IMG/VR virus record: IMGVR_UViG_2695420532_000013
From: a virus
Taxonomy: Duplodnaviria; Heunggongvirae; Uroviricota; Caudoviricetes
Strand: one strand, 5' to 3'
Length of the DNA stretch: 8,419 nt
Shown here: piece after piece, positions 3,790 to 4,027 of the stretch
Position numbering within the stretch: position 1 is the stretch's first letter
How the letters are laid out: the number at the start of each line of letters is the position of its first letter
Made by a program: the position numbers and the translations under genes
Notes under the pieces: generated by a model
What the model was told of the DNA's origin: nothing
Database searches by the model: none
The model's input: only the letters and a program-made list of their open reading frames with translations

Positions 3790-3820
3790 TGTCTCACCCT
3801 TTACTGTGATAACTGTTACG

Positions 3821-3854
3821 CACAAAAACAACAGGCATCCCGGAGGATGCCTGT
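3821..3854 (-). terminator. Intrinsic-terminator-like hairpin + U-run on the minus strand, 32 nt upstream of the J start codon
   Basis: Plus-strand acaggcatcc(3831-3840)-cgga-ggatgcctgt(3845-3854) is a perfect 10-bp stem with a 4-nt loop. On the minus strand it is followed directly by TGTTTTTGTG (plus 3821-3830). The plus-strand side has no T-run after the hairpin, so it is oriented for minus-strand transcripts. Confidence 0.5.
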
Positions 3855-3984
3855 ATCATGACTGAATAAAAATTCTGAATATCTTCACATTTTCACAAAC
3901 TGACTGTGGCGCTAATAATTTCTCTGCGTTAATGTTTTTTGTCGTGACATAAGAATAACTCTCTATAGTTAATCTTCGTAACTC
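3855..3984. other. AT-rich non-coding insert in the I-J spacer; candidate small-RNA or moron locus bounded by opposed terminators
   Basis: No ORF longer than 12 codons on either strand. Visibly AT-rich against GC-rich flanking tail genes. Short direct repeats: ctgaat at 3862-3867 and 3875-3880, ttcaca at 3884-3889 and 3892-3897. Possible sigma70-like elements on the plus strand: TTCACA 3892-3897, about 16 nt spacer, AATAAT 3914-3919. From memory the lambda I-J spacer is about 60 nt, so about 180 nt here is extra. Confidence 0.3.
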
Positions 3985-4022
3985 TCCCGCAGTTCCTGTC
4001 CGTGAGCACTGCGGGATTTTTT
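3985..4022 (+). terminator. Intrinsic-terminator-like hairpin + T-run on the plus strand, abutting the 3' end of gene I on the opposite strand
   Basis: tcccgcagt(3985-3993) pairs with actgcggga(4008-4016) as a perfect 9-bp stem with a 14-nt loop, followed by TTTTTT (4017-4022) and then ATGTTTTAT. On the minus strand the hairpin is preceded by A's and followed by non-U sequence, so it is oriented to stop plus-strand (antisense to tail genes) transcription. Confidence 0.45.
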
Positions 4023-4027
4023 ATGTT

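What the first reader, a model, noticed from the sequence alone, without database searches (positions are those of the whole stretch)
3790..4027. Expanded I-J spacer: AT-rich, ORF-free, bracketed by two opposed terminators (candidate prophage sRNA or non-coding moron)
The I-J spacer is 238 nt, against about 60 nt in lambda as I remember it. The extra DNA is visibly AT-rich against GC-rich tail genes and has no ORF over 12 codons. It has a minus-strand hairpin+U-run (3821-3854) 32 nt upstream of the J ATG and a plus-strand hairpin+T-run (3985-4022) abutting the end of I. A plus-strand terminator makes no sense for the minus-strand tail operon unless an independent plus-strand transcript ends there. 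Plausible sigma70-like elements (TTCACA 3892-3897, AATAAT 3914-3919) would give a plus-strand RNA of roughly 100 nt antisense to the I-J junction. The minus-strand hairpin could instead be an attenuator or processing site controlling J, read through only under Q antitermination. Prophage late regions are known to carry sRNA morons (DicF; the EHEC anti-sRNAs AgvB and AsxR), so this is precedented but I cannot assign it to a known family.
Basis: partly seen in the sequence, partly recalled or inferred. Interest (0 to 1): 0.6.

Follow-up and report, generated by a model that had tools for sequence, protein, structure and literature searches.

The report
Known prophage small-RNA gene between tail genes

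Summary
The I-J spacer is 238 nt (3790-4027) and 39.5% G+C against about 60% in I and J. It has a tail-sense hairpin plus U-run (3821-3854, minus strand), a plus-strand promoter, and a plus-strand terminator (3985-4022) ending 5 nt before the I stop codon.

It can be assigned to a family. The same spacer, on the same antisense strand, holds PasB in EPEC E2348/69 (83 nt, Hfq-dependent, 37 RIL-seq partners). It also holds EcOnc22/23/24 in EHEC Sakai prophages Sp15, Sp14 and Sp11 (~85 nt, destabilised without Hfq). The window RNA is 64-66% identical to these, and a cassette model hits only 3878-4022(+), E=3e-36. Rfam has no model for it.

Relatives have I-J spacers of 2-14 nt (Proteus group) or 59-71 nt (lambda-like, Citrobacter), so this is an inserted non-coding moron. 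Lambda has its own hairpin just before J, so the tail-sense hairpin is not part of the insert.

Apparently unreported:
- PasB and EcOnc22-24 are alleles of one locus.
- All 182 cassettes keep a CRP-like palindrome (3874-3889).
- Some prophages carry 2-4 tandem cassettes.
- Some carry a sodC gene in the same spacer.

Expression and function of this allele are inferred, not shown.

The parts
3790..4027 (.). I-J intergenic spacer, 238 nt, 39.5% G+C
   Evidence: Gene limits. Composition. Relatives have spacers of 2-14 nt or 59-71 nt.
3821..3854 (-). Tail-sense intrinsic-terminator-like hairpin (stem 3831-3840/3845-3854, U-run 3821-3830), 31 nt upstream of the J ATG
   Evidence: Found by the scan. 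dG -19.9 kcal/mol, z = -3.9. 97% of cells stay paired across 7 variants, with one pair changed on both sides (U-A to C-G); this is not significant, 79 of 500 shuffles do as well. Lambda-type spacers and the 342-nt spacer class carry different hairpins at the same position.
3871..3892 (+). Invariant palindrome AATTCTGAATATCTTCACATTT (core TCTGA-N6-TCACA, 3874-3889). It resembles a CRP site and is preceded by an A-rich stretch.
   Evidence: Present in 182 of 182 full-length cassettes and 51 of 51 unique upstream sequences. The two pentamers are 99.6-100% conserved, against 72% for the stretch down to the -10. It occurs once in the window, with 0.04 expected by chance. The resemblance to the CRP consensus rests on my own knowledge of that consensus.
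3892..3897 (+). -35-like hexamer TTCACA, kept only in the window-type and PasB-type alleles
   Evidence: Other alleles have TTCTGT, TTCCGG or TTCGCA here.
3914..3919 (+). -10 hexamer AATAAT
   Evidence: It aligns with TATAAT, GATAAT, CATAAT or TATCAT in other alleles and sits a fixed 24-25 nt from the palindrome.
3926..4022 (+). Predicted sRNA, 97 nt if it starts at G3926. The 5' end could lie as far in as about 3941, the position that aligns with the published PasB 5' end. 3' end at about 4019-4022.
   Evidence: Cassette model hit 3878-4022(+), E = 3e-36, the only hit in the window. nhmmer with PasB gives E = 5e-5 and with EcOnc22 E = 2e-7, both at 3940-4021(+). Fold dG -22.4 kcal/mol, z = -2.7. 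No transcript data exist for this allele.
3934..3941 (+). Conserved 5' U-run (GUUUUUUG). The published PasB 5' end maps just after it.
3951..3959 (+). A-R-N repeat AAGAAUAAC, a candidate binding motif for the distal face of Hfq
   Evidence: An A-rich AAnAAnAAC block is kept in all alleles. The ARN rule is taken from PMC4104026. Binding is inferred.
3969..3977 (+). Conserved core UUAAUCUUC (AUCUU invariant), a candidate seed
   Evidence: Invariant columns in 25 unique cassettes. Predicted unpaired in the family consensus. The seed role is inferred.
3985..4022 (+). Rho-independent terminator of the sRNA (stem 3985-3993/4008-4016, loop 3994-4007, U6 at 4017-4022). It ends 5 nt before the I stop codon.
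   Evidence: The stem CCCGCAG/CUGCGGG is invariant in all alleles, while the loop varies in both length and sequence.
4028..4708 (-). Tail assembly gene I (226 aa), context
   Evidence: Pfam Lambda_tail_I, E = 1.2e-15.
2716..3789 (-). 5' part of tail-tip gene J (context). The reading frame breaks near 2732/2733.
   Evidence: Pfam FNIII-A_GpJ. There is a 62-nt gap relative to the intact J of strain 2013C-4991.

Best explanation
The extra DNA is a single, self-contained small-RNA gene, a non-coding moron, inserted between the end of tail gene I and the hairpin that precedes J in lambda-like phages. It lies on the strand opposite the tail operon.

Proposed workings:
- Host RNA polymerase starts at a sigma-70 promoter: -10 AATAAT at 3914-3919, preceded by an invariant CRP-like palindrome at 3874-3889.
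- It makes an RNA of about 83-97 nt and stops at the terminator 3985-4022.
- Because the late operon is silent in a lysogen, the RNA can be made from the resident prophage.
- The RNA is a diverged allele of the PasB / EcOnc22-24 family. It most likely binds Hfq through its U-tail and an A-R-N stretch. It most likely pairs in trans with host or prophage mRNAs through the unpaired conserved core UUAAUCUUC and the variable bases around it.

Shown here: the anatomy, the homology and the conservation pattern. Shown by others for homologues only: a discrete transcript, Hfq dependence and many RNA partners. Inferred: expression of this allele, its seed, its targets and control by CRP.
For: Same locus and strand as validated sRNAs:
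- PasB and EcOnc22/23/24.
- The published Sakai coordinates are about 128-140 nt lower than in NC_002695.2, which puts the CRAC peak on the sRNA body.

Homology:
- The whole spacer is 88% identical to the E2348/69 spacer.
- The RNA itself is 64% identical to PasB and 66% to EcOnc22.
- The cassette model gives E = 3e-36 with a single hit in the window.

Conservation typical of an sRNA gene, in 25 unique alleles:
- promoter, 5' U-run, A-rich block, AUCUU core and terminator stem are conserved;
- the linkers and the terminator loop vary.

Evidence that the unit is autonomous:
- 8 loci carry 2-4 tandem cassettes, each with its own palindrome, -10, body and terminator.
- Of 122 pattern matches in IMG/VR, 108 abut an I stop codon on the opposite strand, and the other 14 are also in I-J spacers.

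Insertion: spacers are 2-14 nt or 59-71 nt in relatives without the cassette.

Homologue data: PasB is down 6.8 log2 units in one of the two differential-expression tables of PMC8550237 table S2 and 2.4 in the other; I read these as the wild-type versus hfq-deletion comparisons that the paper describes, but I did not see the column headings. PasB has a U7 tail, is the second RNA in 99-100% of chimeras, and has 37 partners.
Against: - There are no expression data for this allele. Its U-tail has 6 U rather than 7.
- In this rare allele the conserved core is predicted to pair with the A-rich block.
- The terminator stem shows no covariation; it simply never varies.
- No target or phenotype is published for any family member.
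- The 5' end is uncertain by about 15 nt: the published PasB start lies 22 nt downstream of the -10, not 7.
- With +1 at G3926 the palindrome is centred at -44.5, not the -41.5 of classical CRP class II promoters.
- In the sodC-carrying spacers the promoter is replaced, so there the terminator also serves another gene.
Confidence: 0.8

Rival explanations
1. The RNA acts mainly in cis. It is fully complementary to the I-J intercistronic stretch of the late transcript. On that reading it, or the convergent transcription that makes it, would trigger processing of the late transcript or lower J expression. Together with the tail-sense hairpin it would set the I:J ratio, or keep J silent unless Q antitermination is active.
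For: - The orientation is antisense and convergent with the tail operon in every case examined.
- A tail-sense terminator-like hairpin lies just downstream in the tail direction.
- Some hairpin before J is kept across lambda-like phages.
Against: - The RNA does not overlap the I coding sequence: it ends 5 nt short of the stop codon.
- Its start is more than 120 nt from the J ribosome-binding site.
- Lambda and its relatives manage with 60 nt and no cassette.
- PasB has 37 partners elsewhere in the genome and behaves as a classical trans-acting sRNA in RIL-seq.
- Tandem arrays with diversified bodies make little sense for a purely cis role.
Confidence: 0.12
2. The spacer is a decaying scar of a protein-coding moron such as the prophage sodC gene. 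The plus-strand terminator would be that gene's leftover terminator and the 'sRNA' only transcriptional noise.
For: In 22 of 118 surveyed spacers (848-852 nt) a Cu,Zn superoxide dismutase gene sits on the sRNA strand, upstream of the same body and terminator. It replaces the promoter exactly at the predicted start.
Against: - The cassette promoter palindrome is invariant in 182 of 182 cassettes.
- Cassettes are duplicated in tandem as complete units.
- The body keeps conserved blocks.
- Homologues give discrete, Hfq-dependent bands.
- The sodC gene has its own hairpin before the sRNA body.
Confidence: 0.05
3. The spacer encodes a small protein: the minus-strand ORF 3859..3794 (21 codons) or 4009..3929 (26 codons).
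For: Both ORFs exist. The ATG of the first is present in all hairpin variants.
Against: - Neither ORF has a Shine-Dalgarno sequence upstream.
- The length of the first ORF is not conserved between alleles (14-21 codons, read from the sequences).
- The paired changes in the hairpin are both non-synonymous (Ser to Pro, Met to Val).
- The second ORF lies antisense to the conserved sRNA body.
Confidence: 0.02

Closest known systems
PasB (EPEC E2348/69 prophage PP6; Pearl Mizrahi et al. 2021, PMC8550237; Zhu, Shabalina and Storz 2026, bioRxiv 10.64898/2026.05.13.724894)
   Same: - Same I-J spacer, same antisense strand, and a 3' end a few nt from the I stop codon.
- Same terminator stem CCCGCAG/CUGCGGG, -10 position and upstream palindrome.
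- The whole spacer is 88% identical.
   Different: - The RNA body is only 64% identical.
- The longest exact match I can see between the two RNAs is 16 nt, so the word-size-28 BLAST used to define PasB variants does not find this allele.
- The window has AATAAT rather than TATAAT, and U6 rather than U7.
- Expression and Hfq binding are shown for PasB only.
EcOnc22/23/24 (EHEC O157:H7 Sakai prophages Sp15, Sp14, Sp11; Tree et al. 2014, PMC4104026)
   Same: - Same locus and strand.
- 66% identity over the RNA.
- Identical AUCUUC core and terminator stem.
- RNA size about 85 nt.
   Different: - The sequence between the palindrome and the -10 differs.
- The 5' U-run region is shorter.
- I found no paper that links EcOnc22-24 to PasB.
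AgvB and AsxR anti-sRNAs
   Same: Short Hfq-binding sRNAs carried as morons in lambdoid prophages of pathogenic E. coli.
   Different: - They lie downstream of the Q-dependent late promoter, not in the tail operon.
- They are 51-60 nt with a different conserved 3' region.
- Rfam holds models for both (accessions), yet the scan gave no hit in the window.
Protein-coding prophage morons (lom and bor of lambda, from my own knowledge; the sodC gene found here in the same spacer)
   Same: An autonomous promoter-to-terminator unit inserted between late genes, AT-rich relative to its neighbours, and able to be expressed from the resident prophage.
   Different: The product is an RNA, not a protein.

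Membership tests
PasB / EcOnc22-24 (I-J spacer sRNA of lambdoid prophages) | Lies in the I-J spacer, antisense to the tail operon, with its 3' end next to the I stop codon | tested here: met
   In the window the terminator ends at 4022 and the I stop codon is at 4028-4030. The layout is the same in E2348/69 and in Sakai Sp15, Sp14 and Sp11.
PasB / EcOnc22-24 (I-J spacer sRNA of lambdoid prophages) | Sequence homology to the validated RNAs | tested here: met
   nhmmer gives E = 5e-5 (PasB) and 2e-7 (EcOnc22) at 3940-4021(+). Identity is 64% and 66%. The cassette model gives E = 3e-36. The published word-size-28 BLAST criterion is not met.
PasB / EcOnc22-24 (I-J spacer sRNA of lambdoid prophages) | Rho-independent terminator CCCGCAG...CUGCGGG followed by a U-run | tested here: met
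   The window has U6.
PasB / EcOnc22-24 (I-J spacer sRNA of lambdoid prophages) | Own promoter directly upstream | tested here: met
   At sequence level only: a -10 at 3914-3919 and the invariant palindrome at 3874-3889.
PasB / EcOnc22-24 (I-J spacer sRNA of lambdoid prophages) | Discrete transcript of about 83-85 nt | not testable with these tools
   Known only for homologues.
PasB / EcOnc22-24 (I-J spacer sRNA of lambdoid prophages) | Binds Hfq and depends on it for stability | not testable with these tools
   Known only for homologues. The window RNA has a U-tail and an A-R-N block.
AgvB / AsxR anti-sRNAs | Match to the Rfam models, and a location downstream of the late promoter | tested here: not met
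   The Rfam scan of the whole window at E <= 1 gave 0 hits. The location differs.
DicF | Match to the Rfam DicF model (that Rfam holds one is from my own knowledge) | tested here: not met
   0 hits.
Cis-antisense translational regulator | Overlaps the coding sequence or ribosome-binding site of the gene on the other strand | tested here: not met
   The RNA spans 3926-4022. The I stop codon is at 4028-4030 and the J ATG at 3789.
CRP-activated class II promoter | TGTGA-N6-TCACA site | tested here: met
   TCTGA-N6-TCACA matches 9 of 10 core bases. It is invariant in 182 cassettes.
CRP-activated class II promoter | Site centred at about -41.5 | tested here: inconclusive
   The centre is at 3881.5, which is -44.5 if +1 is G3926. 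The start site has not been mapped.
CRP-activated class II promoter | Dependence on CRP and cAMP | not testable with these tools
   The only hint is that PasB is higher in static overnight LB than in DMEM, while Spot 42 behaves the opposite way. That comparison is confounded by growth phase and oxygen.
Intrinsic terminator (tail-sense hairpin 3821-3854) | G+C-rich stem followed by a U-run | tested here: met
   10-bp stem with 6 G-C pairs, then UGUUUUUGUG. Termination itself was not tested.

The most novel reading that the evidence does not exclude
The I-J spacer is a dedicated slot for a modular sRNA cassette. On this reading a CRP-type regulator switches the cassette on through the invariant palindrome, and the pairing region is swapped by recombination. 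The slot can hold one to four tandem cassettes, or a cassette fused behind sodC. PasB and EcOnc22-24 would then be only two alleles of a much larger set, present in at least about a quarter of complete E. coli genomes, that ties prophage-encoded regulation to the host's carbon state.
Probability: 0.3. Interest if true: 0.5.

Novelty: new member of a known kind. Interest (0 to 1): 0.3.

Why it matters
The element itself is ordinary for EHEC and EPEC prophages, and nothing here overturns current views.

Its practical value is for annotation and comparison.
- The locus is unannotated in every genome and phage record I looked at, and Rfam has no model for it.
- The published PasB survey misses diverged alleles such as this one.
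- Treating PasB, EcOnc22-24 and this allele as one locus gives a ready set of natural variants of the pairing region.
- It also gives a conserved candidate regulator site that can be tested directly.

No function or target is published for any member of the family.

Tried and rejected
- Rfam: a permissive scan of the whole window (E <= 1) gave no hit, which also excludes AgvB, AsxR and DicF.
- Consensus structure: RNAalifold on 16 alleles found only the invariant 7-bp terminator stem, with no covariation.
- Tail-sense hairpin: one pair changes on both sides, but 79 of 500 shuffles score as well, so I do not count this as proof of structure.
- Small ORFs inside the spacer: rejected. They have no ribosome-binding site, their length is not conserved, and the hairpin changes are non-synonymous.
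- Minus-strand promoter that would use the tail-sense terminator: the scan found none, and reading the sequence I saw none either.
- Full-text search for 20-mers of the RNA: nothing. Searches for EcOnc22 and PasB found only the discovery papers, one review and the 2026 survey, with no function reported.
- AgvB1 did not match exactly at the published coordinates. A fuzzy match showed that the paper's Sakai coordinates are about 128-140 nt lower than in NC_002695.2.
- PasB's RIL-seq target list was not extracted, because the table is too large for the look-ups I had left.
- I built no covariance model. The nhmmer cassette profile was enough.

Full report
**Observation.** The window carries lambda-type tail genes on the minus strand.
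- Gene I occupies 4028-4708 (Pfam Lambda_tail_I).
- Gene J starts at the ATG at 3787-3789 (product [11 protein letters not shown]...; Pfam GpJ domains).
- The spacer is therefore 3790-4027, 238 nt. Its G+C is 39.5%, against about 60% in the flanking genes.
- Lambda's own I-J spacer is 60 nt.

The consensus scan and folding confirm both hairpins.
- The tail-sense hairpin has its stem at 3831-3840/3845-3854, followed on the minus strand by UGUUUUUGUG (dG -19.9 kcal/mol, z = -3.9).
- The plus-strand hairpin has its stem at 3985-3993/4008-4016, followed by six T at 4017-4022. It ends 5 nt before the I stop codon.

One detail is not exact. Two minus-strand ORFs of 21 and 26 codons lie inside the spacer. 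I do not think either is a gene (reasons under "Rivals").

**Identification.** Rfam has nothing for this region, but the literature does.
- PasB. Table S6 of Pearl Mizrahi et al. 2021 places PasB of EPEC E2348/69 at NC_011601.1 1466343->1466261 on the minus strand. In that genome I ends at 1466255 and J starts at 1466496. PasB therefore lies in a 240-nt I-J spacer, antisense to the tail genes, with its 3' end six bases from I. The window spacer aligns to that spacer at 88% identity.
- EcOnc22/23/24. Table S2 of Tree et al. 2014 lists these as Hfq CRAC peaks in Sakai prophages Sp15, Sp14 and Sp11. The northern band is ~85 nt and is destabilised in the hfq deletion. Of the 33-nt northern probe, 23 nt match the plus strand of the Sp15 I-J spacer exactly. 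All three prophages carry the same 240-nt spacer, with the tail genes on the minus strand.
- Coordinates. The paper's Sakai coordinates run about 128-140 nt lower than NC_002695.2, as a check on AgvB1 shows. That shift puts the CRAC peak on the sRNA body.

Over the RNA itself the window allele is 64% identical to PasB and 66% to EcOnc22. nhmmer places both at 3940-4021(+), with E = 5e-5 and 2e-7. A profile built from 22 unique cassettes hits the window once, at 3878-4022(+), E = 3e-36.

**The cassette is an insertion.** I measured I-J spacers in relatives found through the I protein.

| Group | I-J spacer |
|---|---|
| Morganella, Proteus, Providencia, Xenorhabdus | 2-14 nt |
| Lambda and lambda-like Shigella / E. 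coli prophages | 59-60 nt |
| Citrobacter werkmanii | 71 nt |
| Prophages whose I is at least 97% identical to the window's | 234-260, 336-343 or 848-852 nt |

The 60-nt and 71-nt spacers all contain a terminator-like hairpin (AACCGCC-loop-GGCGGUUUUGUC) just before J. The window's tail-sense hairpin is the positional counterpart of that hairpin. The extra DNA is the cassette inserted between the end of I and the hairpin.

**Conservation pattern.** I compared 25 unique cassettes.
- Conserved: the -10 hexamer, a GCGUUA motif plus a U-run at the predicted 5' end, an A-rich AAnAAnAAC block, an AUCUU core (UUAAUCUUC in the window, 3969-3977), and the terminator stem CCCGCAG/CUGCGGG with its U-run.
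- Variable: the linkers. The terminator loop also varies, in both length and sequence.
- RNAalifold predicts only the terminator stem. The body is unpaired in the consensus, as expected for a pairing region.
- No base pair covaries, so the structure rests on invariance, not on compensatory change.
- In this particular allele the core is predicted to pair with the A-rich block.

**Promoter.**
- What never changes is TCTGA-N6-TCACA (3874-3889), flanked by A-rich and T-rich bases.
- It is present in all 182 full-length cassettes and in all 51 unique upstream sequences. These include the internal units of tandem arrays, whose other flanks differ.
- The two pentamers are 99.6-100% conserved. The stretch between the palindrome and the -10 is 72% conserved.
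- The pattern occurs once in the window, against 0.04 expected by chance.
- It matches 9 of 10 core bases of the CRP consensus, as I know that consensus.
- With +1 at G3926 its centre falls at -44.5, three bases from the classical -41.5. I therefore treat CRP control as a hypothesis only.
- PasB is higher in static overnight LB than in DMEM, while the CRP-repressed Spot 42 behaves the opposite way. This agrees with the hypothesis but is confounded by growth phase and oxygen.

**Evidence that the unit is autonomous.**
- A pattern scan of IMG/VR found at least 120 loci. Of 122 matches, 108 abut an I stop codon on the opposite strand, and the other 14 are also in I-J spacers.
- Eight loci carry two to four tandem cassettes. 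Each has its own palindrome, -10, diversified body and terminator.

**How it most likely works.**
- Shown here: the anatomy, the homology and the conservation.
- Shown by others, for homologues only: a discrete RNA of 83-85 nt, Hfq crosslinking and Hfq dependence, and 37 RIL-seq partners with PasB as the second RNA in 99-100% of chimeras. PasB is down 6.8 and 2.4 log2 units in the two differential-expression tables of table S2. I read these as the wild-type versus hfq-deletion comparisons the paper describes, but I did not see the column headings.
- Inferred: this allele is transcribed in the lysogen from its own promoter, binds Hfq through its U-tail and A-R-N block, and pairs in trans through the UUAAUCUUC core and neighbouring variable bases.
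- The 5' end is uncertain, between 3926 and about 3941. The published PasB 5' end lies 22 nt downstream of the -10, just after the U-run, and may be a processed end.

**Rivals.**
- A purely cis-antisense role is unlikely. The RNA overlaps neither the I coding sequence nor the J ribosome-binding site. Lambda-type phages do without the cassette. PasB has many distant partners.
- A moron-scar reading has some support: 22 of the 118 surveyed spacers (848-852 nt) carry a Cu,Zn superoxide dismutase gene on the sRNA strand, and it replaces the cassette promoter exactly at the predicted start. The invariant promoter element, the tandem arrays and the northern data for homologues argue against it.
- The small ORFs have no ribosome-binding site and no conserved length, and the paired changes in the hairpin are non-synonymous.

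**The tail-sense hairpin.** It is well conserved: 97% of cells pair across seven variants. Only one pair changes on both sides, which is not significant. Different hairpins occupy the same place in lambda-type spacers and in the 342-nt spacer class. That fits a terminator or RNA-stability element before J that Q-modified polymerase would read through. This is inference only.

**Novelty and distribution.** The family is published and experimentally validated, but no function or target is known.
- Relatives at least 90% identical to the window RNA occur in 1247 of 5426 complete E. coli genomes. Only 15 records reach 95% or more.
- The cassette occurs in 136 phage records, mostly long-tailed Stx-converting phages.
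- No RNA gene was annotated at the locus in any record listed.
- The 2026 PasB survey used word-size-28 BLAST and would not pick up this allele.
- That survey does not mention EcOnc22, a promoter, CRP, sodC, or tandem copies of PasB.

The finding is therefore a correct call of a known kind of element. It adds a few modest new points of comparative anatomy.

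Noticed in passing
window 2713-2813 (junction near 2732/2733): Gene J is split into two overlapping ORFs, 3789->2713 and 2813->375. 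Compared with the intact 3480-nt J of strain 2013C-4991, the window lacks 62 nt at this point, which shifts the reading frame. Sakai Sp15 and Sp14 also have J annotated in two pieces. The prophage may be tail-defective, or this may be an assembly error.
   Followed up: partly
L010:2182-3032 and 21 other IMG/VR loci (spacers of 848-852 nt): The same I-J spacer can carry a Cu,Zn superoxide dismutase gene (Pfam Sod_Cu, E = 4e-32) on the sRNA strand. It replaces the cassette promoter exactly at the predicted start, so the sRNA body and terminator lie downstream of sodC.
   Followed up: partly
L189:323-1132, L184:1-703, L179:4419-5027, and L195, L216, L141, L155: These loci hold tandem arrays of two to four sRNA cassettes in one I-J spacer. 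Each cassette has its own palindrome, -10, diverged body and terminator; one unit in L189 uses a different terminator stem, CUCCCGU/ACGGGAG. I did not find this described in the papers I read.
   Followed up: partly
L044, L054 and similar loci (spacers of 336-343 nt): In this spacer class the J-proximal part, including the tail-sense hairpin, is replaced by unrelated sequence. That sequence has a different hairpin, AAAACCCCGGUAUC-loop-GAUACCGGGGUUUCUCUUU.
   Followed up: no
L086-L109, L127 (lambda-type and Citrobacter spacers): A terminator-like hairpin AACCGCC-loop-GGCGGUUUUGUC lies 25-30 nt before the J ATG. It is conserved in lambda, in lambda-like Shigella and E. coli prophages, and in a Citrobacter werkmanii prophage whose flanks are otherwise different. 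I know of no described function for it.
   Followed up: partly
L087-L101, L119, L120, L128 and similar loci (genome contigs): Contigs whose I protein is 99-100% identical to lambda's turn up in assemblies labelled Pseudomonas, Shewanella, Bradyrhizobium, Paenibacillus, Chromatium and others, and several are short and low-coverage. A contig with the E. coli-type I gene sits in a Streptomyces flavalbus assembly (L084). These look like contamination with lambda control DNA or with E. coli DNA.
   Followed up: no
L049 and L060 (spacers of 259-260 nt): A 7-nt unit, CAGACAT, just upstream of J is present in three copies instead of one. This accounts for the 14-nt length difference from the 245-246-nt spacers.
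   Followed up: no
window 3956-3971: This allele is rare: only 15 E. coli records are at least 95% identical. It differs from the common 90-95% subtype by a cluster of substitutions (AACTCTCTATAGTTA against AATTCCTTACACTCA or ...CTTA). These create a 5-bp inverted repeat, UAACU/AGUUA, which is predicted to fold part of the conserved core into a hairpin.
   Followed up: partly
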